64,000 nucleotides of DNA, taken from IMG/VR virus record IMGVR_UViG_3300010367_000170; one strand, written 5' to 3'. The notes under the pieces were generated by a model. That model saw only the letters and a list, made by a program, of their open reading frames with translations, ran no database searches and was not told the origin of the DNA. The stretch's first letter is position 1, and each line of letters begins with the position of its first letter. Of this stretch, positions 9,972 through 22,338 are shown piece by piece. Source of the DNA: a virus. Its lineage: Duplodnaviria; Heunggongvirae; Uroviricota; Caudoviricetes. A program made the position numbers and the translations under genes.

Positions 9972-10093
9972 CTATCCACCTGGGTCGGATGACGCCCGTT
10001 TGGCTCCTGGCCGGTGTCGGCGGCTGCGTCGTCGGCGTTCTCGTACTCCAGTTCCTTTTCGCGCTGTGGATCTTCCGCAAGCGTCGTAAGTGA
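9968..10093 (+). CDS. Small single-pass membrane protein (41 aa)
   Basis: ATGA overlap with the upstream gene. Hydrophobic core WLLAGVGGCVVGVLVLQFLFALWIF then KRRK. Not in the ORF track (short). Confidence 0.4.
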   Translation: MTIHLGRMTPVWLLAGVGGCVVGVLVLQFLFALWIFRKRRK

Positions 10094-10180
10094 TTTCCCT
10101 TGGGCGCAGCCGGGCTTCGGTCCGGCGGCGTCCACAGGAGGTCAAACGGCTTCCGACCCCAGCGAGTAACCGGAGGACAT

Positions 10181-10615
10181 ATGGAAGCGACGATGTTGGA
10201 TTCGTCGTACGGCAAGACGACCGTTGGCGACCTGGACAGAGGCAATCTGAGTCAGTGGTGGATGTTCCGCGCTGACTCCGGCGGCGACACCAACGACACG
10301 TTCGTGGAGGTCACCGTACACTACGACCCTCGCGGGCCGATGAACTGCGACGCCAAGGCTGCCGTGTACAACTACGACACCGGCGAGGAGATTGGCCTGT
10401 TCGCGCTGACGGAGCCGCCATCCAACTGGTGGTCGGAGGTCAACGCCAAGCTGGTCGCCGCGACCGGCAGTGCGCCGTCGCGTTTGTTGACGGTGGCGGA
10501 CAGTCTGAGCAACCGGATGGCCGCGCTGCTGTCGAGGGTGTTCGAGGAGGAAGACGCCTGGGTGCGGACCGACTCCGACGGCGGGGGTGACGAGAAGCAG
10601 AACGTACCGGGGTGA
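10181..10615 (+). CDS. Hypothetical protein (144 aa)
   Basis: ACCGGAGGACAT then ATG 10181. The listed ORF start 10100 has no RBS. Confidence 0.65.
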   Translation: MEATMLDSSYGKTTVGDLDRGNLSQWWMFRADSGGDTNDTFVEVTVHYDPRGPMNCDAKAAVYNYDTGEEIGLFALTEPPSNWWSEVNAKLVAATGSAPSRLLTVADSLSNRMAALLSRVFEEEDAWVRTDSDGGGDEKQNVPG

Positions 10616-10701
10616 CCGCCCCTGGCAGCAACCGGGCTCCGGTTCGGAGGCTGTCATAGGCGGTCACCCGGCTGCTGAACCCAACAGAAAGGAGCCCTGA
10701 C

Positions 10702-10821
10702 ATGGGTAAGAAGGACAAGAAGTCCATCGGTGTCGGCGGTGGAGCGGTTCGCGGCGGCGTAGCTGGCGGCATCCTCGCTGGCGCTATCAACGTCGTCGCG
10801 AAGCTCACCGGCAAGGGGTGA
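10702..10821 (+). CDS. Small Gly-rich protein (39 aa)
   Basis: AAAGGAG 7 nt before ATG 10702. Confidence 0.4.
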   Translation: MGKKDKKSIGVGGGAVRGGVAGGILAGAINVVAKLTGKG

Positions 10822-11003
10822 GGCTTGCTCGTTGCCTGCGGTTCCCGTACGGCGGGAACCGTGGGGAACGGGACAAGCCCGCGCCGGAGGGGAGTGACAT
10901 GAACGATGGCAAGAAGCGGATGAGCTGGCCGACGATGCTGGTTCTGCATCTGTTGGTGTTCGGTATCTGTTTCGTCGGCGCCAAGCTGATGTTGGGGAGG
11001 TGA
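10818..11003 (+). CDS. Small membrane protein (61 aa), GTG start in GTGA overlap
   Basis: GTG 10818 overlaps upstream TGA. C-terminal TM MLVLHLLVFGICFVGAKLML. Alternative start ATG 10899 (GGAGGGGAGTGAC upstream). Confidence 0.4.
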   Translation: MRLARCLRFPYGGNRGERDKPAPEGSDMNDGKKRMSWPTMLVLHLLVFGICFVGAKLMLGR

Positions 11004-11314
11004 GCGGCGTGGCACAGAGGGACACCCGGGAAACCGGATTCGGTGTTGTCTCGGGTGAAATCCAGGCGATCCTCATCGACGCTGAGGGGGACCGCGAGTG
11101 CGGCGCTCACCGGAACTACATGGAGCCGTGGACCGATGAGGAGATGGACGCCTACATCGGCGCCATCAAGGAGGCGAGGGATCTCATCAAGGAGCGGGAC
11201 GACGATACCTTGGCCGTGCGGGAGGCGTGTTCCGACTACGGGAACGATGAGGGGCCGCGCGGGATCCGGCAGCTGTACGCCCGGTACAAGGACCGTATCA
11301 GCAGGCTGCCGTGA
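11000..11314 (+). CDS. Hypothetical acidic protein (104 aa), GTGA-coupled
   Basis: GTG 11000 overlaps the upstream stop. Confidence 0.55.
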   Translation: MSGVAQRDTRETGFGVVSGEIQAILIDAEGDRECGAHRNYMEPWTDEEMDAYIGAIKEARDLIKERDDDTLAVREACSDYGNDEGPRGIRQLYARYKDRISRLP

Positions 11315-11547
11315 AGTCGCAGTGGGGTCACCGGCGCGCCTGGGAGGTGTCCGAGAAGTACCTCAAGGAGCTGACGGACAAGCCTCCGTCGGGTTGCCGC
11401 TGGTGCGGTATCCGCGAGCGTAATCACTGGTGGTTGTGGATCGAGCCGGTTGGTTCGCACGGTTGGGTACCGCCGACGAACGAACAGATCAAGCAGCGCA
11501 TGTGGGAACGGCGGCAAGACCGCGAGACCATCCGGAGGAACAAGTGA
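11311..11547 (+). CDS. Hypothetical protein (78 aa), GTGA-coupled
   Basis: GTG 11311 overlaps the upstream stop. Trp-rich. Confidence 0.55.
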   Translation: MKSQWGHRRAWEVSEKYLKELTDKPPSGCRWCGIRERNHWWLWIEPVGSHGWVPPTNEQIKQRMWERRQDRETIRRNK

Positions 11548-12077
11548 ACATCGACCCGGACAGGATCTATCACCTGGATGCCTTGGGTAAGATCCAGCAT
11601 CTGCTGTTGGGTGAGCAGCGTTGGTTGAAGCAGTTGGAGGGTGACGCCGCCGACGGCTACACCCATGCCGCGAAGGAGGTGGAGCGGCAGAAGGCGATCG
11701 TGGAGTCACTGCGGGATTTGCTGGACGGAGCGAGGGAACGGCGGATGCTGGCGACGTGTCGGTGGGTCCTCAACGGGGCTGCCGCTGCGCGCGTAGCAGA
11801 CAAGGAGAAGTACTCGTGGGCCGGATTGCCGGAGGAGAAGGCTACGGCCGTACGGGCAGCGATAGATGCCGGGAAGGTGCTGCGGACGGCGCACCGGGCG
11901 GCGAGGTACGGGGTGGACACGGATCTGCGGATGACTGAGTTCACGGACCCTGAGCTGGGTCAGCGCTGGGCGGTGCTGGTGACTATGGGCCGGTCCGAGA
12001 GGTACCTGACCGATCACCCCACCCGGTTCGACGCCGACACCCGGTTCGACGGGCTGCTGACGGCTGCGGGCGGGTAG
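11544..12077 (+). CDS. Hypothetical protein (177 aa), GTGA-coupled
   Basis: GGAGGAA 3 nt before GTG 11544, overlapping upstream TGA. The listed ORF start 11430 overlaps the previous gene. Confidence 0.6.
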   Translation: MNIDPDRIYHLDALGKIQHLLLGEQRWLKQLEGDAADGYTHAAKEVERQKAIVESLRDLLDGARERRMLATCRWVLNGAAAARVADKEKYSWAGLPEEKATAVRAAIDAGKVLRTAHRAARYGVDTDLRMTEFTDPELGQRWAVLVTMGRSERYLTDHPTRFDADTRFDGLLTAAGG

Positions 12078-12119
12078 CGGTAGGATGGGAGGACACCTCC
12101 ACGGCGAGTAACCCGTAAA

Positions 12120-12157
12120 CCGGAAGCCCCCTGATCTTCTCCTCAGGGGGCTTCCGG
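12120..12157. terminator. Bidirectional terminator CCGGAAGCCCCCTGA-tcttctcc-TCAGGGGGCTTCCGG then TTTTGTTG
   Basis: Perfect 15-bp stem between convergent genes 11544..12077(+) and 12166..12459(-), with a T-tract. Confidence 0.75.
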
Positions 12158-12165
12158 TTTTGTTG

Positions 12166-12459
12166 CTATGCCTGGTCGGTCGGGTCAGACGGCGTCAGCG
12201 TCAGGGCCGTGGCGGCGCCGCCAACGACGTCGAAGCTGAGCGTGCCGGTCAGTCCGTTCGGGTCGGCTGCGGTAATGGTGATACCCACCTCCGGGTTACC
12301 GGCCACGACCGTGACCTTCAGGGTGGTCTCGTCATCCACGTTGACGACGGTGCCGCCGGTGGAGGAAGAGGTCCAGGTCAGCTGGTCTGGGACGTCGTTG
12401 CCCTTGGAGTCCTTGGCCTCGACGTTGATGTCGAACTGCTGGTTGTCTACGATCTGCAT
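12166..12459 (-). CDS. Bacterial Ig-like (Big_2-type) domain protein (97 aa)
   Basis: AGGGGAGAG RBS before ATG. Beta-rich T/V/G sequence TLKVTVVAGNPEVGITITAADPNGLTGTLSFDVV. Confidence 0.6.
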   Translation of the reverse strand: MQIVDNQQFDINVEAKDSKGNDVPDQLTWTSSSTGGTVVNVDDETTLKVTVVAGNPEVGITITAADPNGLTGTLSFDVVGGAATALTLTPSDPTDQA

Positions 12460-12696
12460 GTCTCTCCCCTATCAGGGCTGCGGTACTGGTGGGCTTACAA
12501 CGAGTACGAGTTCAGCCGGGCCGGTTTGGAGCCAAGAGAAAATCTTGACGGCGCTGGCCAGGACCTCGTCTGTGAGCATGCCAGGGTTGATCTGGTGGCA
12601 GCTCATCTGAGACAGGCGCACTGCGTAGTCAAGCGCCACGGCCCGCAGTTCGGCTTCGGTCATATAAGCCAAAGTAGCCGATGGGGAGCGGGGAGG

Positions 12697-12870
12697 CTAA
12701 ACGGCGGGGGTGTCTTTCTTGTTGAGGGCTTCGTCCAGTTCCCCGTTCTTGACGGCCTTCAGGAACTGGATGAACTCTTCTCGGGTGAACTCCAGCTCGT
12801 TGTCTGGGTTGGCGGAGTTTCGGACGGTGAAGACCTGTTCGATGCTGTGCCAGCCGACTTGAACGGACAC
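12697..12870 (-). CDS. DUF397-like small protein (57 aa); not in ORF track
   Basis: GAGGAGTAA RBS then GTG (plus 12870-12868). VSVQVGWHSIEQVFTVRNSANPDNELEFTREEFIQFLKAVKNGELDEALN matches the C-terminal DUF397 pattern (vRdS.dP.gp.L.FT..EW.aFl.gvK.GEfD). High GC3. Confidence 0.55.
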   Translation of the reverse strand: MSVQVGWHSIEQVFTVRNSANPDNELEFTREEFIQFLKAVKNGELDEALNKKDTPAV

Positions 12871-12873
12871 GTG

Positions 12874-13110
12874 TTACTCCTCAGCGTTGAGGTCGTAGGT
12901 GATCTTCGCCTCCGAGGAGGGGTCGAAGGTTTGGGCCGTCATCTGCTTCATCAGGTCGGTGGACGTGATCGAATTAGCCAGCTTCGACCTGAGCATGTGC
13001 TCCATGCCCTTCTGTTCGATAGGCGTCATACGGTCCCAGTCTTCCTTGGCGACGGACTCCACCAGCGTATAGACCTTGCTGCCCACCAGCAGGGCGGCTG
13101 CGATTCTCAT
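12874..13110 (-). CDS. Hypothetical protein (78 aa)
   Basis: ATG 13110 one nt after the upstream TGA (coupled). The N-terminal 39 aa of listed ORF 12874..13227 overlap the HNH gene out of frame and look non-coding. Confidence 0.5.
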   Translation of the reverse strand: MRIAAALLVGSKVYTLVESVAKEDWDRMTPIEQKGMEHMLRSKLANSITSTDLMKQMTAQTFDPSSEAKITYDLNAEE

Positions 13111-13111
13111 G

Positions 13112-13597
13112 TCATTCGTCGTCAAGGGGGGTCTCCGGTCTGATGGTGGGGAGTTTGGTGCCATCCGGCCGCAGGAAACACCAGCCGGTGGCGAGTTTGA
13201 TGGGCACAGTCTCCGGGTCGGCGGCACGGTTCACGATGAACCCGGTAGTGACCGCTGACTGCCGGAACCTCTCGACTGCGGTGTGGCAGCCGTCGGGGGT
13301 GGTGGCGGAGCCGCACAGCATCACCAGGTTGGACGGGGAGTTGGCTTGGGGGTCTCGGGTACCGCCCATGCCTCGCGGCTTGCGGTGGTGGACGCTGTAG
13401 GCGCCGGTGATGGTTTTCCCGCAGCGTTCACACGCTCCTGCGGCGCGTTCGGCAATGGTGCGGCGGACGGCGGGGGTGGGGCCGGTGTTGCGGGGCGGAC
13501 GTGGTTTCGTCTCACCGCGCTTCAGTTCCCTTGCGGGGGACATGCCTTTGGTGGCGGCGAGGGGGGTCTTACGGGTCAGAGGGCTGCGTTTCACCAC
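13112..13597 (-). CDS. HNH endonuclease
   Basis: CERCG..HHRKPRGMGG..NLVMLCGSATTPDGCH is an HNH/zinc motif. GGAGAAAAAGTGAC then ATG. Confidence 0.8.
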   Translation of the reverse strand: MVKRSPLTRKTPLAATKGMSPARELKRGETKPRPPRNTGPTPAVRRTIAERAAGACERCGKTITGAYSVHHRKPRGMGGTRDPQANSPSNLVMLCGSATTPDGCHTAVERFRQSAVTTGFIVNRAADPETVPIKLATGWCFLRPDGTKLPTIRPETPLDDE

Positions 13598-13965
13598 GTC
13601 ACTTTTTCTCCGAGCGCTGCCGCTTCCAGGGAGCGCTGGAACTTACACCGGACTTCCTCAACCCAGGCTTGATGGTTCTCGACTTCGCATTCAGCGCAGC
13701 GGAGACGCCAGTACCCGAACAGGCGCAGGTTGAAGGAGCTGTACGGGTCGTAGTGCTTGGGGCAGTAGCGGCTGGAGAACTTGTCGTACAACTCCTCCAA
13801 CGCCTGATCCTTAGCCTTGTGGGCGCTGGAGGCGTGCCGTCCGGTCCCTTGCAGACCGGACGGCACGTGGGTGATGCGGACCGCGACGTTAGGGACGTCA
13901 GGGCCCAGAATCATGACCGCTCCGCTGCGGTAGATGTCTATCCGCAGGTCCTGTTCCCGTATCAC
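13591..13965 (-). CDS. RF-1 (peptide chain release factor) domain-like protein lacking the GGQ motif
   Basis: DLRIDIYRSG.[11 aa].AVRITHVPSG..SAHKAKDQALEEL aligns to RF1/RF2 [42 protein letters not shown]. The equal-length GGQ loop is replaced by AVMILGPDVPN. Coupled to neighbours by 4-7 nt overlaps. Confidence 0.55.
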   Translation of the reverse strand: MIREQDLRIDIYRSGAVMILGPDVPNVAVRITHVPSGLQGTGRHASSAHKAKDQALEELYDKFSSRYCPKHYDPYSSFNLRLFGYWRLRCAECEVENHQAWVEEVRCKFQRSLEAAALGEKVTW

Positions 13966-14222
13966 GGGGCGTCTTGCCGGTTGCTCCGGAGTGCGCTCCG
14001 GCAGGCTTCCGCGTGCTTCCGGACAGAGTCGGGGCGGGCAGCGCGTCCCCGGGGAGGGGGGACGCTGTCCGTCGGTAGCGGGATACGCCAGCCGGAGCGG
14101 CGCAGCCCGTACACGAGCCTGTCGGCTTTGTCGTCGGCGTAGGGCAGGTTCCAGTTGTGGAACTGTTCTTCCAGGGTGTTGCGCAGGTTGGCCCAGCGGG
14201 CTTCCTCAGCGAGGGAAGTCAT
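13962..14222 (-). CDS. Hypothetical protein (86 aa)
   Basis: AAGAGGAGGGGG RBS then ATG. Confidence 0.6.
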   Translation of the reverse strand: MTSLAEEARWANLRNTLEEQFHNWNLPYADDKADRLVYGLRRSGWRIPLPTDSVPPPRGRAARPDSVRKHAEACRSALRSNRQDAP

Positions 14223-14628
14223 CAGGCACCCCCTCCTCTTTGCGTGCTTCTACGAGGAGTTCCCCGAATTCCAGGGGATGACGCTGCCGCAGGCGTGCGT
14301 ATGCGGAATAGCGTGCGCGGTCTACGGCTCGCCGGATCTCGACGCGTCCGGCGTGGGTGTCGTAGAACTCGCGGACGCGTCGCGTCTCGGATTCGAGGTA
14401 CTGGACTCCCAGTGCCTCGATGTTGCCGACACGGCGTTGCCTCATGTATTCACGCTGACATACTTTGCAGTTGCTGCGGTAGCGTCCGCGCGGTGCGTCG
14501 GAAGGGCGCTGGCCTGCGCGCGGCTTGTAGCGCTGGAAATGAAACTCGGACAGGAGTTTCACCTCCCCGCATTGGCTGCACTTCTTGCGGCCGTCGGGGA
14601 ACTGTTCGGTGATCTCTTCCGGGGTCAT
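14206..14628 (-). CDS. Zinc-ribbon protein (140 aa)
   Basis: AGGAGACAAC RBS then ATG. CSQCG...CKVC. Confidence 0.6.
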   Translation of the reverse strand: MTPEEITEQFPDGRKKCSQCGEVKLLSEFHFQRYKPRAGQRPSDAPRGRYRSNCKVCQREYMRQRRVGNIEALGVQYLESETRRVREFYDTHAGRVEIRRAVDRARYSAYARLRQRHPLEFGELLVEARKEEGVPDDFPR

Positions 14629-14691
14629 TTAGTTGTCTCCTAGGGGATCGGGTTTCCCCACACTTCGTCCCCTAGGGTATCCGATACTCCG

Positions 14692-15210
14692 TTACTCCGG
14701 TAGCGGTTGATCTTCAGTCTGGCCCATACCGCTACCCTCGGTCCTGTCGCGTTGTCTGCGGGAAAGCCACCATCGGCGCGGGCGGGGGACGTCGTCGTTG
14801 ACTTCTTTCGCGGTCACGGCCGGTACGTTACGTCCGACAGCGGCCAGCGGAATACCCTCCGGCGGAGGCTTCCCCGGTACTGGATCGGCTTCCCAATGTC
14901 CGTTGCGCAAAGCTTTGATGAATGCGCGCGGGTCGTCAGGGTCGGCGTCAGGGACGCGGGTGCGGGTCGCTGTGTCTTCTTTGGGTTTGCGGGCTGCGGA
15001 CAATACCCGCACCCCGGCACGGATCTTCGATGGAGACAGTGGCCTGTCGGACTCGGAGAAGTGGGCGGTGACCACGGCCTTGGCGTCGTCAAAGTCCACT
15101 TCGTGGAGCAGCTGGTACCAGGCTTCGACTTCGGCCTGAGATACGCCATCCGGGCGCCTCTCGTACACGTAGATAGCACTCAGCAGGAACGCCACCTGGG
15201 TTTTGGTCAC
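14692..15210 (-). CDS. Hypothetical protein (172 aa), downstream of the O-like initiator (possible replication partner)
   Basis: GGAGGAC RBS then ATG 15210, adjacent to the upstream stop. Confidence 0.6.
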   Translation of the reverse strand: MTKTQVAFLLSAIYVYERRPDGVSQAEVEAWYQLLHEVDFDDAKAVVTAHFSESDRPLSPSKIRAGVRVLSAARKPKEDTATRTRVPDADPDDPRAFIKALRNGHWEADPVPGKPPPEGIPLAAVGRNVPAVTAKEVNDDVPRPRRWWLSRRQRDRTEGSGMGQTEDQPLPE

Positions 15211-15414
15211 TCAGTCCTCCGACTGGTTCTTGAGGTTGTTGATCTCCCTGTTGGCCTGCCAGATCTCCCGGAGATGGAGTTCTACGGCTCCGAGGAACAG
15301 TTCGGCCATGAGTCCCCTGTCGGCTTCGGCTTCCCTGGCCAATTCGGCAACGGTGGATTCCAGTCTGCGAATGGACCGGTACCGTGCCGCCTGCCAGTCC
15401 TCCAGGGTGTTCAC
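15211..15414 (-). CDS. Small coiled-coil protein (67 aa), GTGA-coupled
   Basis: GTG 15414 overlaps TGA of the upstream gene. The first 52 aa of listed ORF 15211..15570 overlap the upstream gene and look non-coding. Confidence 0.45.
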   Translation of the reverse strand: MNTLEDWQAARYRSIRRLESTVAELAREAEADRGLMAELFLGAVELHLREIWQANREINNLKNQSED

Positions 15415-16919
15415 CAGCTGGGTCCGATCTCCTTGAGGCCGCCGTTGCCGAGTTCCTGCTGGCGGTAGTGCTCTACCGTCTGCATGTTCTGGCGGAACGC
15501 GTCGTCGGCGCGGGAGCGGACTTGCGGGGCCTGTTCTGGGTCGTCGTCCCAGCGTTCCTGGTTGAGCCACACGGACGGGTGGGGGGTGAACTGGATCTCC
15601 TTGCCGATCATCTGGCAGGTGTTGGCGTAGCTGGCTGCGGCTTCGATGATGCGGTGGGCGGGGGTGCCCTTGGCGACGGCGGCAAGGAAGGCTTTGCGGG
15701 CGGCTCCCTTGCCGGTGCGGCGCGGGTAGTAGTGCCAGAAGGTGTCGAAGTCTTGTTCGTTGTTCTGCTTCAGCGGGGCGGGGGCTGCGGGGAAGGCGAA
15801 CAGGGAGCCGTCGGCGGGGGCTTCTGTGTTGGGGTCGGACAGGAGGAGGTGTCCGGGGACGTTGTGGATCTTGCCGGTGTCGGCGAGGGTGTTGATCCAG
15901 TTGGAGATGTCAGTGGGGGTGATGTCGTCGTCGTAGCGGAAGAGTTCCGCTTTGAGGTAACGCGTATCGGAGACGATCATGGAGGCGGTGTCTGCGAGGC
16001 TGCGAAGCCCCAGGTAGAACAGCCGGATGCCGATGGGGAGGGTTCCCAGGGCAGGGTCGGTGAACGGTGTCATCGCGGCTCTTTCGGTAGTGCGTGGGGA
16101 ATACGTTACCGCGATCTTTGCCTCAACGGGAAGATCGCTTCCGGGCTGGCAAACCGCCGGAGAAACCTCCTCCCGCACTCCTCCGGCACCACTCACCTTA
16201 CGAGGCACGGCAAGCCCCAAGAGGCGCCTAGCAAAGCCCCTAGCCACCCTCCTGGTGGTCCTCCGGTCCGCAGCCGGTCCGGCCCCAACCGGCAACAAGC
16301 CCAAGTGAGGTTCCCGCCTAGCGCTACCCGTAGGCTCCGGACCTGCTTCTGGTCCGGTCTTCATCGGCAAAGCCGATGGATAGATATCTGCGCGCGGCTC
16401 TCCTTGAGAGTTGTCTTCACAAAGCGAGCCGCTAGACCTGTTGTCGCTAGTAAAACCACCGGTCTGTAGATGGTATACGTAATTTTGGCTCTGACCTGCG
16501 TAAACGTCCTCCTGCGGCTCCCACTCCGGATCTTGTTCCTGAGCCTCACGCCAAGCCTGCTCCCGCGCCTCCGAAACCTCCTCCGGCAACGGACACTCCG
16601 GGGTCCCCCCAAGCCGGTACTTCACTACCGGCCGTCTCCGGTCGCAGGGAGCCTCGCCGTCTTGGAGTATGAGCCGGAGGTCACGGAGCTTCCGCAGAGC
16701 CTTCTCGACAGCGCTACGGCTGTAGGAAACCCGCTCCTGAATCCAGGAGATACACAACCGGAACCGATCCCACATAGACCGGCGTGTCCACGACGCGACC
16801 ACGTACAACACCGACGTCTCGCAGCCCGACAAGCCATAGAACTCGGCAGTGTCGGCAGCCCACGCAACAGCGAATTCGTTACTTCCATCAAGCAGGGGCT
16901 TGGACCGGTGGCTCCGCAT
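15411..16919 (-). CDS. Lambda-O-like replication initiator candidate: N-terminal winged-HTH, low-complexity linker, C-terminal conserved domain (502 aa ORF)
   Basis: N-terminal ISWIQERVSYSRSAVEKALRKLRDLRLI is a wHTH. C-terminal FWHYYPRRTGKGAARKAF..WLNQERWDDD has very high GC3. The middle ~140 codons have low GC3 and contain an AT-rich stretch plus iteron-like motifs. An internal ATG at 16073 could alternatively start a separate 221-aa product. Confidence 0.5.
   Translation of the reverse strand: MRSHRSKPLLDGSNEFAVAWAADTAEFYGLSGCETSVLYVVASWTRRSMWDRFRLCISWIQERVSYSRSAVEKALRKLRDLRLILQDGEAPCDRRRPVVKYRLGGTPECPLPEEVSEAREQAWREAQEQDPEWEPQEDVYAGQSQNYVYHLQTGGFTSDNRSSGSLCEDNSQGEPRADIYPSALPMKTGPEAGPEPTGSARREPHLGLLPVGAGPAADRRTTRRVARGFARRLLGLAVPRKVSGAGGVREEVSPAVCQPGSDLPVEAKIAVTYSPRTTERAAMTPFTDPALGTLPIGIRLFYLGLRSLADTASMIVSDTRYLKAELFRYDDDITPTDISNWINTLADTGKIHNVPGHLLLSDPNTEAPADGSLFAFPAAPAPLKQNNEQDFDTFWHYYPRRTGKGAARKAFLAAVAKGTPAHRIIEAAASYANTCQMIGKEIQFTPHPSVWLNQERWDDDPEQAPQVRSRADDAFRQNMQTVEHYRQQELGNGGLKEIGPSW
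16099..16490. promoter_or_regulatory. Putative intragenic origin-like region (iteron-like CGCTAG/CCTAGC repeats, GAATACGTTACCGCG motif, AT-rich GGTATACGTAATTTTGG)
   Basis: Low GC3 in the host ORF frame. Five or more copies of (C/G)CTAGC within about 230 bp. AT-rich block at 16472-16490. Analogous to lambda ori inside gene O. Confidence 0.3.
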
Positions 16920-17075
16920 CAGCTACGTTGTACCTATCTGTTTGGACCAACACTCAGATACACACCTATTGGCCGTCGGGACGGATGACCTGGTGTAGCG
17001 ACAAAGGTTCCTTGATCTCGGACCTTCAGCGCGTCGGAGCCCCATGGTGCAGGATCACCGGGGGCTCCAAACTTT

Positions 17076-17411
17076 TCACGAGCCTATCTGCGGCACGACC
17101 CCCGGGTAAAGCCGCCCACGACCTGGCCTAAGACGCCTGGGAACTTCAACAACGAGGTCAGATGGGCGCCACACCGCCGTTTCGATCCCAGCTGAAGCCA
17201 GAACCCGCAGCCAAAGCTTCTGGTCCTCTGTCAACCGACCTGTCGCAGACTTCAACTCCGCGAACAGGACACGCCGCTGCCGCTCATTCAGCAGGATCAG
17301 GTCAGGGCAGCCGCGAGCGCTGACTCTCCGAGAGTCAGGAACGTGATAGGCGATCCACCCGAACCTCTCAGCCAGCTCCATCACCGCCGTCTGCAACTGC
17401 GCCTCCGTCAT
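17076..17411 (-). CDS. VRR-NUC domain nuclease
   Basis: MTEAQLQTAVMELAERFGWIAYHV...GCPDLILL..FAELKSATGRLTEDQKLWL fits the VRR-NUC consensus. The N-terminal 56 aa of the listed ORF look non-coding. Confidence 0.7.
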   Translation of the reverse strand: MTEAQLQTAVMELAERFGWIAYHVPDSRRVSARGCPDLILLNERQRRVLFAELKSATGRLTEDQKLWLRVLASAGIETAVWRPSDLVVEVPRRLRPGRGRLYPGVVPQIGS

Positions 17412-17664
17412 CGCCGGAGTACGCGGCAAGGAGTTCCTTGACGATGTCCTTACCGCTGGGCTCCCGGTCCTCGTTTTCCTCCCACCGGTCAACGTCCCAC
17501 TCCTCACACGATTCCGCATCCCGCTCTGGCGACTCCACCCGTTCCCGCTGCACCGCATCCAGGCCCCAGTAGCGCACAAGAAAAGCGGCAGCCTTCCGCT
17601 GCCGCGCCAACCGGCGCCGGTAGTGGAAGGCTGCTCTGCTCTCGCCTACTCGCTGTCGATCCAC
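17368..17664 (-). CDS. Acidic hypothetical protein (98 aa)
   Basis: Fills the 234-nt gap between paralog C and VRR-NUC. Moderate GC3. No clear RBS. Overlaps both neighbours. Confidence 0.3.
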   Translation of the reverse strand: MDRQRVGESRAAFHYRRRLARQRKAAAFLVRYWGLDAVQRERVESPERDAESCEEWDVDRWEENEDREPSGKDIVKELLAAYSGDDGGAVADGGDGAG

Positions 17665-18083
17665 CCCATGAAGTATGCAGTGAACCCCAGGAACAGGCTG
17701 ATCACCTCAACGGCGGTGTCCCAGCCGCCACGCTCCATCACGTCCTCCCACACCGCCTGGACGCGAGCGCCGTCACCGTCTTCCATAGCGAACAACAGCC
17801 CGCAGAACGCTCCCCGGCTACGCGGATCCTCCACCGGGGCGTCCGCGATGTTCAACGCCATGTTCTCGATGAGGCGGTGGACATTGGACTGTCCGTGGGC
17901 CTCCCGCGCCCAGGAGTGCCAGATACCCATCATCATCGGCAGCAGATGCGGCCGGTCCTGATAGACGTCGCACGCCAGACGCGTCAACAGCTCCATGTCG
18001 TCTTCACCGGCGATACGCAGGAACTCGCGCGCAAGACGGTCAGCGTCGGCTACAGCCTGGTTGACCGCCTCCTCATTGATCAC
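17646..18083 (-). CDS. Paralog C of a tandem triplicated family (146 aa), GTGA-coupled
   Basis: GTG 18083 overlaps TGA of paralog B. Shares W-rich core (IWHSWARE) and C-terminal SLFLGF motif with B and A. Confidence 0.45.
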   Translation of the reverse strand: MINEEAVNQAVADADRLAREFLRIAGEDDMELLTRLACDVYQDRPHLLPMMMGIWHSWAREAHGQSNVHRLIENMALNIADAPVEDPRSRGAFCGLLFAMEDGDGARVQAVWEDVMERGGWDTAVEVISLFLGFTAYFMGWIDSE

Positions 18084-18538
18084 TCCCGTACCGCGTTCGC
18101 GAACAAGCTGCCGAACATGGACGACATCAAGGTCATCACCTCCCAGGCGACCGGCCAACCGTCCTGCTGGTCCACGACCCGCGCCCACGCCTTCGTGGAC
18201 TTGACCGGGCTGCGGTCCTGCATTCCGTACAGCATGTCGCAGATCACCGCCCTTGACGAGGATTCCTGCAAGGGAGCGCCAGCGATGTTGGAGGTGACCT
18301 GTAACACCGCAGCTTCGGCGGAGGTCTTGCCGCACAGGTTCGCGGCGATGTCGTACCAGATGGCGAAGGCGGTCGGGACCACATCCTTGTGCTCTTCCCA
18401 GACGTACCGGGCAGCCTTGTCGAAGTCGGGGTGGTTCTGCATCGACATGTCCAGCAGGGTGTTGGCGACGCTCGCCGCGCGCACCATGAAGTCCTGGTAT
18501 TCGCGCATAGCGCGCCTACGCTTCCGGTTCTCGAACAC
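18080..18538 (-). CDS. Paralog B of the tandem family (152 aa)
   Basis: GTG 18538, 3 nt after TAA of paralog A. AIWYDIAANL ... SMFGSLFANAV. Confidence 0.45.
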   Translation of the reverse strand: MFENRKRRRAMREYQDFMVRAASVANTLLDMSMQNHPDFDKAARYVWEEHKDVVPTAFAIWYDIAANLCGKTSAEAAVLQVTSNIAGAPLQESSSRAVICDMLYGMQDRSPVKSTKAWARVVDQQDGWPVAWEVMTLMSSMFGSLFANAVRE

Positions 18539-18541
18539 CCC

Positions 18542-19024
18542 TTACTCGCAGTCGGCGGAGGCGGAGGGTGGGGCCAGGACGCTGCGGGCGAAGCCAAGGA
18601 ACACGGACGCGACGTCCACGGTGAGGTCTTCGTCTGGCGCTACTGTCCGCATCCACATCTCGGTGAACCGTTCGTGTTCGTCCTGGGACAGATGCAGCAT
18701 CAGACCGCGTCCGAAGCTCAACGGCAGGCCCTGCCGCCTGTACTCCTCGTGGGGCATGTCCTTGTTGAGGTTGTCCAGTTGCGTCTGGAGCTTCTGCGCG
18801 ACGATACGAGCGGCCTGCGTGGTAGCGGTGCTGCCGCGTTCTCCCTGGCACATCTGGTACCAGATGACGATGGTACGGCCCAGGGTGGCGCGGTCGGATT
18901 CCCTCAGCAGCCGGTTGACTTCGGTGAGGTTTTCCATGTCGTTGTGAGCGAGGAGGGTGACGGCGAGGATACCGGCGGGATCCTCCATACGCGTCTCAGC
19001 GGCCTTGTTGTGTTCGTTCTCCAC
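18542..19024 (-). CDS. Paralog A of the tandem family (160 aa)
   Basis: ACGGAGGAAAC then GTG 19024. The longer listed ORF to 19123 has no RBS. IVIWYQMCQ ... SVFLGFARSV. Confidence 0.45.
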   Translation of the reverse strand: MENEHNKAAETRMEDPAGILAVTLLAHNDMENLTEVNRLLRESDRATLGRTIVIWYQMCQGERGSTATTQAARIVAQKLQTQLDNLNKDMPHEEYRRQGLPLSFGRGLMLHLSQDEHERFTEMWMRTVAPDEDLTVDVASVFLGFARSVLAPPSASADCE

Positions 19025-19141
19025 GTTTCCTCCGTTTTTGAGAAGCGGTAACCGGGCTATACGATACTCTACGAACTCGCCGCCGAAACCGGACGGCACG
19101 CCACCCATGAACACCCCTGTCACCTACCGGAGGGAACAACC

Positions 19142-19774
19142 ATGAACCTCAAGCGCCGTCTCGCGACGGCCACCGCCGTCGGCGTCACTGCCGCCACGCT
19201 CACCGCGTGCGCCGACCACCACCACGTCGTGGCCGTACCGCAGACCAACGCCGTCGCCTACGCTCCCCCGTACCTCGGGGAAAACGGCATGTGCTACTAC
19301 GTGGACAGCCCCGGCGAAGTGGCCAACCTCATCGCCGGTGGCCTGTGCCAGCCGGGCTGGCGCCCCGTCGTGATGCCGCTGGATTGGCACTACCGCTACG
19401 CCGACTACATCGCCTCCCCGGCGTACTACAACGTGTACGCCCTCCCCGGAGACCGGGGCGGATGGGGCCGCCAGTGGGGTACCCAGTCCACGTTCTACAC
19501 CACCAACATCACCATCATCCACGCCAAGGAGAAGACCGCCACCTACAAGGGCAGCGACGGCAAGACCGTCACCGGCAACATCACCACCTTCGCCCCGCCC
19601 AAGACCAAGGCGCCGACGTCCGCGCCGCTGCCCGCCGGAGCCCGCTCCTCCGCGCCGCTGCCGGTCGGCGGCGCCCGCTCCACCGCTCCGGCTCCGGCAG
19701 CGTCCACGGCCAAGCCCTTGTCCGGCGGAGGTGCCCGCAGCAATCCGGCGCCTCCGAGGGTGAGCGCACGCTGA
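19142..19774 (+). CDS. Secreted lipoprotein (signal peptide plus lipobox LTAC)
   Basis: CCGGAGGGAACAACC then ATG. MNLKRRLATATAVGVTAATLTAC. Pro/Ala-rich C-terminus. Confidence 0.7.
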   Translation: MNLKRRLATATAVGVTAATLTACADHHHVVAVPQTNAVAYAPPYLGENGMCYYVDSPGEVANLIAGGLCQPGWRPVVMPLDWHYRYADYIASPAYYNVYALPGDRGGWGRQWGTQSTFYTTNITIIHAKEKTATYKGSDGKTVTGNITTFAPPKTKAPTSAPLPAGARSSAPLPVGGARSTAPAPAASTAKPLSGGGARSNPAPPRVSAR

Positions 19775-20184
19775 TGGCCTCCTGGGAACGTTCCATCGCC
19801 CACAAGACGTGGGTGGAGGTGAGCATCAACACTCCCTGCTTCAGCGGCGACCTGTATGCCGCCTCCTCCGAGGCGCGTACGCAGTACTACAAGCACAAGG
19901 GACAGGTGCCCGACTCCGACGACGCGTTCGAGATCCTGACCGGCGACGACAAGATCACCATCCGGTTCGAGACCACCGAAAAGCGCGTTGCACAGCTGAA
20001 CGACACCATCCAAGCCGACCAGCTGAGACGCGCCACAGAACTCCTCGCCGCCATCGCCACCGACTGCGTCGGCAACAAGTCCGGATACTGCACGGTACAC
20101 AGCCGCTACGACGCGAATGACAACTGCTACCACGCCCTGGCCCGCGACTTCCTGACCAACCTGGAGGAGAACCCCTATGCCTGA
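19774..20184 (+). CDS. Hypothetical protein (136 aa), ATGA-coupled
   Basis: ATG 19774 overlaps upstream TGA. Good coding in frame. Confidence 0.6.
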   Translation: MASWERSIAHKTWVEVSINTPCFSGDLYAASSEARTQYYKHKGQVPDSDDAFEILTGDDKITIRFETTEKRVAQLNDTIQADQLRRATELLAAIATDCVGNKSGYCTVHSRYDANDNCYHALARDFLTNLEENPYA

Positions 20185-20464
20185 CGAGATCACCCCCTGG
20201 TGGACCGTCGTCGGCTGCTGGCCCGACCTGAACGACATCAACCGTTCCCAGCGGTGGATGGACAACTACCAGGCCGTGACCCCGCAGCTGGCAGAGGACA
20301 TGGCCCGGTTCGAAGCCCAGCAGGGATGGACCGCGTCCGGCCGCCCCGGTGACGCCCTGTTCATCGTGACCGGCGTGTTCCCCGGCAAGCACTCCTCTGC
20401 CGACGCCACGTACGCCTACTATGCCGACCCCGGTATCCCTGCCCCGCAGACGCTGCCGGAATAG
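20177..20464 (+). CDS. Hypothetical protein (95 aa)
   Basis: GGAGGAGAACCCCT then ATG. Confidence 0.6.
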   Translation: MPDEITPWWTVVGCWPDLNDINRSQRWMDNYQAVTPQLAEDMARFEAQQGWTASGRPGDALFIVTGVFPGKHSSADATYAYYADPGIPAPQTLPE

Positions 20465-20520
20465 CAACAAAGGGCACGCCTGGGGGAATGGCCTGGGCGT
20501 GCCCGACTTCAGGAGAACGC

Positions 20521-22338
20521 ATGGGATACAACACCAAGTTCAGCGGCACCATCTTCACCGAACCGCAGATGGACTGGACGATGCGCGCCGCCATCCGCGA
20601 ATACTGCGCCAACGCCGACGTCGGCAAGGTCCGCGAGAACTCCGACCTGGACGGCACCTGCGACTGGAAGCCGTCCGACACCGATTTCTCCGGCCTGATA
20701 CACAACGGCATGGAGAAGTCGTACGACCAGGACAAGTGGCTCCGAGCGCTCATCAACGACCTGTTGAAACCTGCCGGGTTCGTCTGCAACGGCGTCATCG
20801 AATGCCAGGGCGAGCAGGCCGGTGACATCTGGCGGATCTACGTCCGCGACAACGAGGTCACCCGGGATGACCTGGCCCCCGGCGCCGTCTGGGAAGACCA
20901 GTATGTCTCCGAACCTTCCTATGCCGAGAAGGTCAACGCTCCGCTGACAGAAGACACGGTGACCGCCCTCGACAAGGAGTTGACCAGCGGCAACATCGCC
21001 AGGTACCGGCGCGCCAGGTACCCGCAGCAGGACGCCGAACTGTTCACTGCCGCCCAAGCAGATGAGGCCCTGAACGCTCTGCGGGCGAGGCTGCACAACA
21101 CCCCGCCGGAACCGGAACCGGCGCCTTCCATGTCTTCCGTCGGCGCCGCTCTACGAGACCTGGGCAACGCCATCGCCTTCAAAGCCACCCAAGGCGTGGA
21201 CGCCGTCGCCAGCTTCGTCACCGACATCGAAGGCGCTTTGGAGCTGTGCACCGAACAAGGCGACATGGCCCCTTTGGACGCCTTGTTCAAGTCCCTCCGT
21301 GACGAACACGACGCTGAAGCCGAACAGGCAGCCAAGTCCGCTGCCGTAGACGACGACATCCCCTCCGAGGGGTTCGCGTCCAGCAACATCGACCCGCCGG
21401 AAGGCTACGGCATCCCCGAAGAGGTCAAGGCGTACGTACGGGAACAGCTGGAAGGCAACAGGGGCTCCCAGGCCGCCTTGATGATTCTCCAGGCGGTTCA
21501 CGATGACGACGTGGACGCCTTGGAAGAGCGCACCGAGAAGCTGAACATCCCGGAGTTCACGCAAGGTCTGGACGATGCCTGGCGGCTCGCCGCCGCGAAC
21601 ATCGCCAAGGCCAGTCTTCCCGCTCCCGCTCCGAAACTCACAGCCGAAGACGTCACGAGCAGGTACCTCATGACGTTGGATCAGGCCCAGGAGATGATCG
21701 ACGGTGGGGCCATCGAGTCCGGCGGCATCCTCTTCGTCAACGAAGCCGCCCGTGACGAGTTCGCCGCTTGGGTGAAAGCCGACCGGGAAACGGCTGAAGC
21801 CGAACACGAAGCCGCCTGGAAGAAGATCCACGCCGAGCAGGCGGAGGAGGAGAAAGTCAGGGAGCAGCTGCGGTACTACGACACCCACGACTCCGTCACC
21901 GGCCAGGACATCCCGGACCTCTCCGAGGAGGACGAAGCCGCAGCAGCGGCCACCCTGGACAAGGCCATCGAAGACGGCACCGCCGGATACACCGTGGCTC
22001 CTCCGGAACGCCGTTTCCTGGACGATGACAACCTGGAGACCTGGGACAGGGAATCCCGGCAGACGCCCGGGAAGACGATCAAGGAAGTCATCGGTGCCGA
22101 CATCCCGCCCAGCCTGTGGGATTCCCTCGACAGCCCCAACGATCACCTGTGGATGATCTGGTCCAACAAGTACAGCCTGTGGTGGATGCCCAACAGCGTC
22201 GGCTACACCGAACACCCCGGCAGCGCCGGACGGTTCACCCTGGAACAGGCCACCGCCATCGTCCTCAAGTCCTGCCGGGGATGGGACCCAGCGCAGTCCT
22301 CTGTGCCGCCGACAACGATCGTGCCCGAACACATCTGA
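20521..22338 (+). CDS. Large acidic hypothetical protein (605 aa)
   Basis: TTCAGGAGAACGC then ATG 20521. Long high-GC3 ORF. Confidence 0.65.
   Translation: MGYNTKFSGTIFTEPQMDWTMRAAIREYCANADVGKVRENSDLDGTCDWKPSDTDFSGLIHNGMEKSYDQDKWLRALINDLLKPAGFVCNGVIECQGEQAGDIWRIYVRDNEVTRDDLAPGAVWEDQYVSEPSYAEKVNAPLTEDTVTALDKELTSGNIARYRRARYPQQDAELFTAAQADEALNALRARLHNTPPEPEPAPSMSSVGAALRDLGNAIAFKATQGVDAVASFVTDIEGALELCTEQGDMAPLDALFKSLRDEHDAEAEQAAKSAAVDDDIPSEGFASSNIDPPEGYGIPEEVKAYVREQLEGNRGSQAALMILQAVHDDDVDALEERTEKLNIPEFTQGLDDAWRLAAANIAKASLPAPAPKLTAEDVTSRYLMTLDQAQEMIDGGAIESGGILFVNEAARDEFAAWVKADRETAEAEHEAAWKKIHAEQAEEEKVREQLRYYDTHDSVTGQDIPDLSEEDEAAAAATLDKAIEDGTAGYTVAPPERRFLDDDNLETWDRESRQTPGKTIKEVIGADIPPSLWDSLDSPNDHLWMIWSNKYSLWWMPNSVGYTEHPGSAGRFTLEQATAIVLKSCRGWDPAQSSVPPTTIVPEHI

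What the first reader, a model, noticed from the sequence alone, without database searches (positions are those of the whole stretch)
15411..16919. Lambda-O-like initiator candidate with an origin-like segment embedded in its own coding sequence
- **Domains:** the 502-aa minus-strand ORF has an N-terminal winged-HTH (SWIQERVSYSRSAVEKALRKLRDLRLI) and a strongly coding C-terminal domain (FWHYYPRRTGKGAARKAF...WLNQERWDDD).
- **Anomalous middle:** the central ~140 codons (about 16080-16500) drop to intergenic-like GC3 and encode a low-complexity linker.
- **Origin-like content:** the same DNA contains at least 5 (C/G)CTAGC iteron-like repeats, the GAATACGTTACCGCG operator-type motif and an AT-rich GGTATACGTAATTTTGG block.
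- **Analogy:** this mirrors lambda ori lying inside gene O (iterons plus an AT-rich region encoding the interdomain linker).
- **Neighbours:** the next two coupled genes (15211..15414, 14692..15210) would be the P-like partners.
Basis: partly seen in the sequence, partly recalled or inferred. Interest (0 to 1): 0.65.

Follow-up and report, generated by a model that had tools for sequence, protein, structure and literature searches.

The report
Phage replication gene hiding control DNA
A phage replication-initiator gene is one long reading frame whose middle third evolves like non-coding DNA and carries a conserved internal gene start and a conserved DNA hairpin, so the gene probably makes a long and a short protein and may contain the phage's replication-control region.

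Summary
ORF 15411..16919(-) has a winged-helix N-domain, a ~155-codon middle with intergenic-like GC3 (0.47-0.63 against 0.8-0.97 in the flanks), and a C-terminal phage Rep domain (PHROG 270, E 2e-24).

About 20 metagenomic relatives (40-70% identity) show the same three-part pattern.
- **Frame kept open:** in all 13 sequences with DNA, the middle is stop-free only in the ORF frame.
- **No protein-level selection:** the middle has dN/dS ~1 and equal conservation at all three codon positions.
- **Conserved nucleotide elements:** a 7-bp/3-nt hairpin with perfect compensatory covariation, a 12-nt element whose orientation flips between lineages, an AT-rich patch and a GCTAGGCG..CTCACTTGGG block.
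- **Internal gene start:** an invariant GGTAWCGTAT motif, then a Shine-Dalgarno built from rare AGA/GGA codons, then ATG/GTG (window 16073).

The 220 aa from that start already equal a complete stand-alone Rep.

My best reading is one ORF with two in-frame initiator isoforms, whose linker-coding DNA doubles as cis-acting control or origin DNA.

The lambda-O analogy is only partly right. There is no O homology, no iteron array, and four of the five CTAG sites are clade-specific. Origin function is unproven (about 0.4).

I rate it a new variant of known kinds (lambda ori-in-O; RK2 TrfA-44/33; pIGRK RepR/RepR').

The parts
15411..16919 (-). Long ORF, 502 aa (55.8 kDa): N-terminal winged helix, disordered tether, Rep core
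   Evidence: There are 18 full-length homologs at 40-69% identity. The frame is open in 13/13 homolog DNAs.
16536..16883 (-). N-terminal winged-helix domain (aa 13-128), ending in the YRLxGTPECPLP..V.EAR motif
   Evidence: AF2 pLDDT is 64-93, with winged-helix fold hits and CRP wHTH at E 0.012. dN/dS is 0.26-0.33 within domain types. The domain is found in only 18 cluster representatives of 1.84e9 proteins.
16074..16535 (-). Middle segment (aa 129-282): predicted disordered linker whose DNA evolves like non-coding sequence but is kept open
   Evidence: GC3 is 0.47-0.63 and pLDDT about 30. Identity at codon positions 1, 2 and 3 is about equal. dN/dS is 0.66-1.23. It is stop-free only in frame 0 in 13/13 sequences, and 0.2-2.3% of shuffles stay open.
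16488..16499 (-). 12-nt element GCAGGTCAGAGC, present as its reverse complement (GCTCTGACCTGC) in other lineages
   Evidence: Orientation follows the N-domain type (6/6 and 6/6). GACCTGC density is 2.9/kb in the middles against 0.38/kb elsewhere.
16465..16494 (-). AT-rich patch (37% GC over 30 nt in a 63% GC genome)
   Evidence: The lowest-GC 30-nt stretch (33-47% GC) lies near the 5' end of the middle in 8 of 12 homologs.
16362..16378 (-). Perfect hairpin/palindrome CATCGGC-TTT-GCCGATG (7-bp stem, 3-nt loop)
   Evidence: 77/77 cells are Watson-Crick. 4 of 7 pairs show double compensatory changes, none one-sided, and 0/500 shuffles reach the score. A further compensatory variant occurs in the most divergent relative L173.
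16345..16361 (-). Conserved 3' flank of the hairpin, AAGACCGGACCAGAAGC; the conserved 5' flank CTATC lies at 16379-16383
   Evidence: The GACC core and the flanking TATC are invariant.
16300..16322 (-). Conserved block GCTAGGCG-N5-CTCACTTGGG; it holds the only CTAG site conserved family-wide
   Evidence: Third codon positions are as conserved as first and second.
16101..16110 (-). GGTAACGTAT, a promoter-like motif (TAACGT fits the actinobacterial -10 pattern TANNNT) inside the ORF
   Evidence: GTA[A/T]CGTA is invariant in 12/12 homologs. It sits 26 nt before the SD in 10 of 11 homolog loci and 23 nt in L166. The same motif lies 18-44 nt before the SD of at least six other window genes and before the first early-operon gene in L166.
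16079..16085 (-). Internal Shine-Dalgarno GAAAGAG (GAAGGAG, AAAGGAG or AGAGGAG in relatives)
   Evidence: It is built from rare codons: AGA is 1.2% of Arg and GGA 11.7% of Gly elsewhere in these genes.
15411..16073 (-). Nested short form, 220 aa (24.6 kDa), from internal ATG 16073: the Rep core
   Evidence: All 12 aligned homologs have ATG or GTG at this position, in L166 one codon upstream. PHROG 2149/16167 profile positions 17-80 match aa 9-69 of the short form, and PHROG 270 matches at E 4e-25. The stand-alone relative P0019 begins within ~8 aa of this start.
15834..16064 (-). Winged helix of the Rep core (aa 286-362)
   Evidence: AF2 pLDDT is 82-92. It matches the N-termini of PHROG 2149/16167/1408 'replication initiation protein'.
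15498..15770 (-). C-terminal helical Rep domain (aa 384-474; FWxxYPRRTGKGAARKAF...HPxxWLNQERWDDD)
15211..15414 (-). Coupled 67-aa gene (its GTG overlaps the TGA of the long ORF), function unknown
   Evidence: A 63-97-aa gene follows in most homolog loci. No family hit.
14692..15210 (-). 172-aa gene, conserved partner, possible helicase loader
   Evidence: phrog_8924 at E 5e-12 (unknown function) and phrog_2289 'helicase loader' at E 2.5e-5. 41% identity to the syntenic gene in L004. No PDB or Pfam hit.

Best explanation
This is the replication-initiator gene of an uncultured high-GC (probably actinobacterial) phage. It is built as one open reading frame with two nested products and cis-acting DNA inside it.

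1. **Long form (shown comparatively).** Ribosomes starting at ATG 16919, which has no recognisable SD, make a 55.8-kDa protein. It consists of a sequence-specific winged-helix N-domain, a ~155-aa disordered tether, and a complete Rep core.
2. **Short form (inferred from conservation).** A -10-like motif (16101-16110), a Shine-Dalgarno (16079-16085) and ATG 16073 lie inside the frame. They produce the 24.6-kDa Rep core alone, which equals the stand-alone initiators of other phages.
3. **Tether DNA under nucleic-acid selection (shown).** The tether-coding DNA is not under amino-acid selection. It is constrained only to stay open and in frame, and to keep nucleotide elements: an orientation-flipping 12-mer with an AT-rich patch, a covarying perfect hairpin with fixed flanks, and a GCTAGGCG..CTCACTTGGG block.
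4. **Role of those elements (inferred).** They are binding or assembly sites for the N-domain and/or the Rep core. That would make them the phage origin or the operator of rep expression, with the AT-rich patch as a possible unwinding element and transcription through the region as a possible activator, as at ori-lambda.
5. **Helicase recruitment (weakly inferred).** The downstream 67-aa and 172-aa genes would help recruit a host helicase. None of the roughly 35 window ORFs scanned against PHROGs matched a helicase or polymerase.

**Sub-claim confidences:** single translated ORF 0.9; internal start used 0.8; nucleic-acid-level elements in the middle 0.9; those elements are the replication origin 0.4.
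For: **Single translated ORF**
- 18 full-length homologs keep one frame.
- The middle is stop-free only in frame 0 in 13/13 sequences; the other five frames hold 0-11 stops each and none is open throughout. Only 0.2-2.3% of shuffles are open.
- The N-domain is under purifying selection, dN/dS 0.26-0.33.

**Internal start**
- ATG or GTG sits at the same position in all 12 aligned homologs (one codon upstream in L166). The SD lies 6-7 nt upstream in 10 of them, 9 nt in L002 and 3 nt in L166.
- The SD is made of codons that are rare elsewhere: AGA 4/329 Arg, GGA 29/247 Gly.
- The GGTAWCGT motif sits 26 nt before the SD in 10 of 11 homolog loci and 23 nt in L166, and recurs at other gene starts.
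- The short form matches the N-termini of PHROG Rep profiles and of the stand-alone relative P0019.

**Nucleic-acid-level constraint in the middle**
- GC3 dips in all 9 sequences examined.
- Identity at codon positions 1, 2 and 3 is about equal, and dN/dS is about 1.
- The hairpin covaries: 77/77 cells paired, 16 double changes, 0/500 shuffles.
- A 12-mer is shared between lineages as its reverse complement.
- nhmmer finds the hairpin and promoter blocks in every family locus, including the most divergent, and in none of about 155 loci with other Rep relatives.

**Precedents**
- ori-lambda maps within gene O (PMC5043065).
- In-frame Rep pairs occur in RK2 and pIGRK (PMC6854812).
- An origin within or next to repA has been suggested for actinophages (PMC7157519).
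Against: - No expression or replication data exist; the host and phage are uncultured.
- No iteron array was found, and each conserved element occurs in only one or two copies.
- GC-skew gives no consistent origin signal. The window's cumulative skew peaks near 16000, but several homolog loci do not show this.
- The sigma-70 consensus scan finds no promoter. The -10 reading of GGTAWCGT is by pattern and position only; some copies lie in inverted repeats and could be operator or 5'-hairpin elements instead.
- All homologs came from searches that return called proteins, so split versions could in principle be under-sampled. None was seen at comparable similarity.
Confidence: 0.55

Rival explanations
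1. Expression-control only. The middle is a fast-evolving disordered tether. Its DNA carries the internal promoter, SD and start, plus operator or mRNA elements (the hairpin, the 12-mer) that regulate the ratio or timing of long and short Rep. The replication origin lies elsewhere.
For: - The promoter-like motif, SD and start are the best-supported elements.
- The same motif occurs at the early-operon start, which suggests shared regulation.
- There are no iterons, and skew is inconsistent.
- In pIGRK both in-frame Reps autoregulate their own promoter.
Against: - The hairpin lies about 290 nt upstream of the internal start, outside any short transcript.
- Its strictly Watson-Crick covariation with a fixed 3-nt loop and no G-U intermediates fits a DNA structure or site better than a typical mRNA element.
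- The AT-rich patch is conserved in position in most homologs.
Confidence: 0.28
2. Strict lambda-O-type arrangement. The N-terminal domain binds an array of iterons (the CTAGC repeats) in the linker-coding DNA, next to an AT-rich region. The C-terminal domain recruits P-like partners encoded downstream.
For: - The CTAG cluster is significant in the window, and GCTAGG is enriched in the middles, 15 against 0.
- An AT-rich patch is present.
- Domain order is DNA-binding domain, linker, partner-binding domain.
- There is a weak helicase-loader hit downstream.
Against: - No Phage_rep_O or other O homology.
- Only one of five CTAG sites is conserved beyond the closest clade, and their spacing is irregular.
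- No repeat family was found.
- The C-terminal half has its own winged helix and its own start, so it is not merely a partner-binding domain.
Confidence: 0.08
3. RNA-based element. The middle encodes a structured RNA, on the sense or antisense strand, that primes or controls replication. This would resemble the RNA-based origins of cluster A mycobacteriophages or plasmid countertranscripts, and it overlaps an ORF.
For: - The sense-strand fold z-score is -2.78, with 1 of 100 shuffles folding as well.
- Actinophage RNA-based origins that overlap predicted ORFs are documented (PMC7157519).
- A hairpin is conserved.
Against: - No Rfam match.
- RNAalifold recovers only the one hairpin as consensus structure.
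- There are no G-U pairs in 77 cells.
- This reading does not explain why the frame is kept open.
Confidence: 0.08
4. Artefact: two separate genes (a wHTH regulator and rep) joined by a sequencing or assembly error or by a chance open frame across an intergenic region.
For: - The middle has intergenic-like composition.
- There is a complete gene start at 16073.
Against: - The same single frame is present in 13 independent assemblies from different samples, spanning 40-70% identity, with in-frame indels.
- The chance of an open middle is 0.2-2.3% per sequence.
Confidence: 0.01

Closest known systems
Phage lambda gene O with ori-lambda inside it
   Same: - The initiator gene contains cis-acting replication DNA in the part that encodes the interdomain linker.
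- An AT-rich stretch lies next to conserved sites.
- The gene is transcribed from an early operon and followed by candidate partner genes (PMC5043065).
   Different: - No sequence homology to O.
- No array of four 19-bp iterons; instead there are single-copy elements and a covarying hairpin.
- The downstream half is a complete initiator with its own start.
- Origin function is not demonstrated here.
In-frame two-product initiator genes: RK2 trfA (TrfA-44/TrfA-33) and pIGRK repR (RepR/RepR')
   Same: One rep ORF holds an internal in-frame start with its own ribosome-binding site. It gives a full-length and an N-terminally truncated initiator that can differ in DNA binding and role (PMC6854812).
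   Different: - These are plasmid systems in Proteobacteria from unrelated protein families.
- Here the extra N-terminal part is a whole winged-helix domain plus a ~155-aa non-conserved tether.
- The tether DNA carries further conserved elements and a promoter-like motif.
- The two products have not been observed here.
Stand-alone phage 'replication initiation proteins' of PHROG 270/9474/2149 (e.g. Gordonia phage CheeseTouch gp95 'RepA-like replication initiator', Pontimonas phage phiPsal1 RepO)
   Same: - The Rep core (aa 283-502) shares the N-terminal winged helix and the C-terminal helical domain.
- Neighbourhoods are similar, with nucleases or resolvases nearby.
   Different: - Those genes are about 280-300 aa and lack the N-terminal winged helix and tether.
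- CheeseTouch has a DnaB-like helicase next to rep; none of the window ORFs scanned matched one.
- The hairpin and promoter DNA blocks are absent from about 155 loci of such relatives.
Actinophage prophage origins (RepA-type and RNA-based) described by Wetzel et al. 2020
   Same: - The host range is of the same kind.
- The authors suggest the origin may lie immediately upstream of, or within, repA.
- RNA-based origins can overlap predicted ORFs (PMC7157519).
   Different: - Those RepA proteins (320-350 aa, pMSC262-type) are a different family.
- No parABS context is evident here.

Membership tests
Lambda O-type initiator with internal ori | N-terminal domain homologous to Phage_rep_O (PF04492) | tested here: not met
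   There is no Pfam hit for the window protein at E<=0.1. None of the 18 family members hits it at E<=1. NCBIfam gives only weak generic wHTH hits.
Lambda O-type initiator with internal ori | Array of repeated initiator-binding sites (iterons) within the gene | tested here: not met
   There is no direct-repeat family or tandem array. No k-mer recurs 3 or more times across homologs except clade-specific GCTAGG. CTAG spacing is irregular.
Lambda O-type initiator with internal ori | AT-rich region adjacent to the binding sites, in linker-coding DNA | tested here: met
   A 30-nt patch of 33-47% GC is present in all 12 homologs, near the 5' end of the middle in 8 of them. The middle encodes a disordered linker.
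Lambda O-type initiator with internal ori | The segment functions as an origin | not testable with these tools
   This needs a plasmid ori assay or marker-frequency analysis. GC skew is inconsistent among loci.
PHROG 270/2149-type phage replication initiation protein | C-terminal helical domain (YPRRxGKxxAxKAF ... HPxTWLNQxRWxD) | tested here: met
   phrog_270 at E 1.9e-24, phrog_9474 at 3e-17, phrog_9327 at 1.5e-16. tblastn hits annotated phage Rep genes.
PHROG 270/2149-type phage replication initiation protein | N-terminal winged helix at the start of the protein | tested here: met
   aa 9-69 of the short form match profile positions 17-80 of phrog_2149/16167 (E 2e-8 and 4e-8). The AF2 winged helix spans aa 286-362.
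In-frame two-product Rep genes (RK2 trfA, pIGRK repR type) | Internal in-frame start codon with its own ribosome-binding site inside the rep ORF | tested here: met
   ATG or GTG plus an SD is conserved in 12/12 homologs. The SD is built from rare codons.
In-frame two-product Rep genes (RK2 trfA, pIGRK repR type) | Both polypeptides are actually made and differ in function | not testable with these tools
   This requires western blot, N-terminal MS or ribosome profiling.
DnaD/DnaB(Gram+)-like replisome organisers | DnaD-type C-terminal domain | tested here: inconclusive
Iteron-plasmid RepA (WH1-WH2, Rep_3) | Tandem WH1-WH2 winged-helix pair homologous to Rep_3 | tested here: not met
Known structured RNA families | Match to an Rfam covariance model | tested here: not met
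   There is no hit at gathering threshold. In 15900-17150 there is only a chance miRNA hit at E 2.4.

The most novel reading that the evidence does not exclude
The tether-coding DNA is the phage's replication origin, and the frame is kept open across it so that the initiator is physically tethered to a site-specific winged helix that binds the DNA encoding it. The 12-mer travels with the N-domain type and works in either orientation. This would give a cis-acting long initiator that nucleates on its own gene, while the internally initiated short form supplies the bulk replisome-organising activity or tunes it. The ~155 codons would then be selected only for 'no stop, right frame' plus DNA structure, a case of coding sequence maintained for topology rather than for residues.
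Probability: 0.2. Interest if true: 0.75.

Novelty: new variant of a known kind. Interest (0 to 1): 0.55.

Why it matters
- **A clear dual-use sequence.** About 460 nt evolve with dN/dS ~1 and intergenic composition, yet have stayed open and in frame across lineages down to 40% identity. The same stretch holds a covarying DNA hairpin, an orientation-flipping motif and a complete nested gene start.
- **A concrete candidate origin/control region.** Replication of this uncultured group of high-GC phages is otherwise unknown. The finding gives precise, testable coordinates.
- **A new module.** The N-terminal winged-helix domain is new to the family databases searched. It is found in only 18 cluster representatives of 1.84 billion, and is also fused to another C-terminal domain.
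- **A caution for annotation.** Pipelines would call one 502-aa hypothetical protein and miss the nested 220-aa initiator.
- **A possible tool.** If the origin reading is right, the segment could serve as a compact replicon part for Actinobacteria, as prophage origins have done (PMC7157519).

Tried and rejected
**DNA and RNA searches that found nothing**
- Near-identity DNA search in 50,697 phage records: no match.
- Rfam at gathering threshold and at permissive E-value: nothing.
- Tandem Repeats Finder and the direct/inverted repeat search: only short chance-level families, no iterons.
- 6-mer enrichment over 12 homologs: no multi-copy motif shared by all.
- Sigma-70 promoter and intrinsic-terminator scan: none.
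- RNAalifold on the whole middle, both strands: only the one hairpin recovered.

**Tests that were inconclusive**
- GC-skew as an origin indicator: there is a peak at ~16000 in the window, but it is inconsistent in the homolog loci, so I gave it little weight.
- Overlapping gene in another frame or on the opposite strand of the middle: rejected, because no other frame is open in all homologs.
- Coevolution of hairpin half-sites with N-domain or Rep winged-helix type: by inspection there is no clear correlation, and the sample is too small.

**Family and structure searches**
- Pfam, NCBIfam and PDB sequence searches for the Rep C-domain and for the 172-aa neighbour: no hits.

**Searches for relatives**
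- Cultured-genome relatives, to name a host: only C-domain hits in many phyla, no full-length relative.
- Metagenome and IMG/VR scans with the N-domain profile: only 3 further loci (2 of them clear relatives), plus 1 already held.
- nhmmer with the DNA blocks against about 155 loci of other Rep relatives: absent there.
Full report
**1. What is there**

The minus-strand ORF 15411..16919 encodes 502 aa. Sliding GC3 divides it into three parts:
- Codons 1-120: GC3 0.70-0.83, mostly G-ending codons.
- Codons ~130-280: GC3 0.47-0.63, with GC1, GC2 and GC3 about equal, as in intergenic DNA.
- Codons 281-502: GC3 0.83-0.97, mostly C-ending codons.

The window is a phage genome of 63% GC. It holds a major head protein at 59443-60822(-), an endolysin at 37272-38276(-), RecT at 25077-26078(+), VRR-NUC at 17076-17579(-), an endonuclease VII-like gene at 14206-14628(-), and HNH at 13112-13597(-). 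No deposited phage is close at the DNA level.

**2. Domains**

AlphaFold with the family alignment gives the following:
- A winged helix at residues 13-128 (pLDDT 64-93).
- Disorder at 129-285 (pLDDT about 30, with one weak helix at 221-233).
- A second winged helix at 286-362 (pLDDT 82-92).
- A helical domain at 385-460, and a last helix at 470-491.

The C-terminal 220 aa are a complete phage initiator on their own. Residues 9-69 of that piece match profile positions 17-80 of PHROG 2149/16167 ('replication initiation protein'). Residues 102-192 match PHROG 270 at E 4e-25. Stand-alone relatives of 280-300 aa start within a few residues of position 283, and annotated relatives include Gordonia phage CheeseTouch gp95 'RepA-like replication initiator'.

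**3. The single frame is real**

A search of 5.8 billion proteins found 18 full-length relatives of 448-522 aa at 40-69% identity. I fetched DNA for 13 of them.
- In all 13 the middle is stop-free only in the ORF frame; the other five frames carry 0-11 stops each and none is open in all.
- Only 0.2-2.3% of composition-matched shuffles of each middle are open.
- The N-domain is under purifying selection (dN/dS 0.26-0.33 within domain types).

So the fusion protein is made. The 'two genes or assembly error' refutation fails.

**4. The middle is not selected as protein**

- All 8 sequences measured, plus the most divergent relative, show the GC3 dip (0.56-0.66 against 0.80-0.97).
- In the folded domains, identity at codon positions 1 and 2 exceeds position 3. 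In the middle the three are equal, and position 3 is as high or higher over alignment columns ~191-270.
- Pairwise dN/dS in the middle is 0.66-1.23, against 0.25-0.6 for most domain comparisons.

**5. What is conserved there is nucleotide sequence and structure**

- **(a) Orientation-flipping 12-mer.** GCAGGTCAGAGC (16488-16499) appears in six lineages in this orientation and in six as its reverse complement, GCTCTGACCTGC. The orientation follows the N-domain type. GACCTGC is about 8-fold denser in the middles than elsewhere. An AT-rich patch follows (window 16465-16494, 37% GC), in the same relative position in 8 of 12 homologs.
- **(b) Covarying hairpin.** CATCGGC-TTT-GCCGATG (16362-16378) is a perfect 7-bp stem with a 3-nt loop and fixed flanks (CTATC; AAGACCGGACCAsAAGC). 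Across 11 sequences, 77/77 cells are Watson-Crick. Four of the 7 pairs change on both sides (16 cells), none on one side only, and 0/500 shuffles reach the score. The most divergent relative adds another compensatory pair. The absence of G-U intermediates and the fixed 3-nt loop lean towards a DNA hairpin, cruciform or palindromic site rather than an mRNA element, but do not prove it.
- **(c) Conserved block.** GCTAGGCG-N5-CTCACTTGGG lies at 16300-16322.
- **(d) Promoter-like motif.** GGTAACGTAT lies at 16101-16110.

nhmmer profiles of the hairpin block and the promoter block find every family locus and none of about 155 loci carrying other Rep relatives.

**6. A nested gene start**

- All 12 aligned homologs have ATG or GTG at the position of window ATG 16073 (one codon upstream in L166). 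It is preceded by GAAGGAG, AAAGGAG or AGAGGAG, 6-7 nt upstream in 10 of the 12 (9 nt in L002, 3 nt in L166); the window has GAAAGAG at 16079-16085.
- That SD is written with AGA (4 of 329 Arg codons elsewhere in these genes) and GGA (29 of 247 Gly codons). The purine run, not the amino acids, is what is selected.
- The GGTAWCGT motif sits 26 nt before the SD in 10 of the 11 homolog loci and 23 nt in L166.
- The same motif (TAACGT or TATCGT fits the actinobacterial -10 pattern TANNNT) lies 18-44 nt before the SD of at least six other genes in the window (445+, 5313+, 27576+, 31293+, 2581-, 19067-). In L166 it lies before the first gene of the early operon, with the same extension, GGTATCGTATACCCCAC.
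- The long ORF's own ATG 16919 has no SD within 15 nt.

I infer that the 24.6-kDa short form is a real and probably major product, and that the 55.8-kDa long form is a second product.

**7. The CTAG 'iterons'**

Five CTAG in 223 nt is significant in this CTAG-depleted window. Only the GCTAGGCG site is conserved family-wide. The others are shared only with the closest clade (L001, L003), and their spacing is irregular. Several other CTAGs in the window sit at or near gene boundaries. The cluster therefore reads as one more non-coding-like signature plus one conserved site, not as an iteron array.

**8. Origin or not**

- *For:* the elements sit inside the initiator gene in linker-coding DNA, as at ori-lambda. 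There is an AT-rich patch, a structure-conserved palindrome, and a motif that travels with a DNA-binding domain. None of the window ORFs scanned matched a helicase or polymerase, so a host replisome must be recruited.
- *Against:* there are no iterons, each element is in one or two copies, skew is inconsistent, and there is no experiment.
- I put the origin reading at about 0.4 and an expression-control reading at about 0.3. The elements being functional at the nucleic-acid level is near certain.

**9. Neighbours**

The 67-aa gene (15211-15414) is coupled by a GTGA overlap. The 172-aa gene (14692-15210) is conserved in synteny (41% identity in L004). It has only a weak 'helicase loader' PHROG hit (E 2.5e-5) and no Pfam or PDB hit. 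'P-like partners' is a reasonable guess, not a finding.

**10. Comparison and novelty**

- The gene works like a blend of lambda O/ori (cis DNA inside the initiator gene) and RK2 trfA or pIGRK repR (two in-frame initiators).
- It is a member of neither family. Its core belongs to the PHROG 270/2149 phage initiators.
- The N-domain is new to the family databases searched and rare (18 cluster representatives of 1.84e9). It is also fused through long linkers to a different Cys-rich module.
- The gene is a mosaic whose N-domain, middle, core winged helix and C-domain have been exchanged independently.

I rate it a new variant of known kinds, interest 0.55.

Noticed in passing
window 445-452(+), 5313-5320(+), 27576-27583(+), 31293-31300(+), 2574-2581(-), 19060-19067(-), 5303-5310(-), 1042-1049(-), ~14675-14690(-): GGTAWCGT recurs 18-44 nt upstream of the SD of several genes. 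Some copies form inverted repeats: GGTATCG-N9-11-CGATACC at 27576 and 31293, the palindrome GGTAACGTTACC near 5301-5322 and 1040-1049, and GAGTATCGGATACCC before the endonuclease VII-like gene. It could be this phage group's early -10 element, an operator, or a 5'-UTR hairpin.
   Followed up: partly
window, whole; clusters at 59163-59446 and 14640-14675: CTAG is strongly depleted: 43 observed against 118 expected from shuffles. Several of the survivors sit at or near gene boundaries. A second cluster of five lies at 59163-59446, next to the major head gene. A CCCTAGG pair flanks the 14629-14691 intergenic gap.
   Followed up: partly
L168:1989-3602 versus L003 and L004; all homolog genes: The initiator genes are mosaics. 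L168 is L003-like except that its core winged helix is of the L004 type. Window versus L001 gives dS 1.12 in the N-domain, 0.34 in the middle and 0.12 in the core winged helix. Module boundaries coincide with the domain boundaries.
   Followed up: partly
proteins P0034-P0037: The same N-terminal winged helix (YRLxG.P..LP..V..AR) plus a long low-complexity linker is fused to a different C-terminal module with a Cys-rich motif (YGC.DP.CEDG.LW...GPC.GC). This suggests a reusable 'targeting domain plus tether' cassette.
   Followed up: no
window 6575-6648(+) and 6749-6822(+): Two phage-borne tRNA genes: tRNA-Val(CAC) and tRNA-Ile(TAT).
   Followed up: no
window ~9000-24000: Strand composition switches near 16000. 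The + strand has G>C from ~9000 to 16000 and C>G from 16000 to 24000, across genes of both orientations, so cumulative GC skew peaks inside this ORF. The switch is seen in some homolog loci (L002, L165; L164 just upstream of the gene) but not others (L006, L166).
   Followed up: partly
window 16111-16138(-): An 8-bp hairpin, GCGATCTT-N12-AAGATCGC, lies immediately upstream of the internal promoter-like motif. It is shared only with the closest relatives (L001, L003).
   Followed up: no
window 16920-17075: The 156-nt gap between VRR-NUC and the long ORF contains an inverted repeat, GGAGCCCC-N17-GGGGCTCC, and GGTACAACGTAG just before ATG 16919. This resembles the GGTAACGTAG motif at 445. The long ORF start has no SD.
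   Followed up: no
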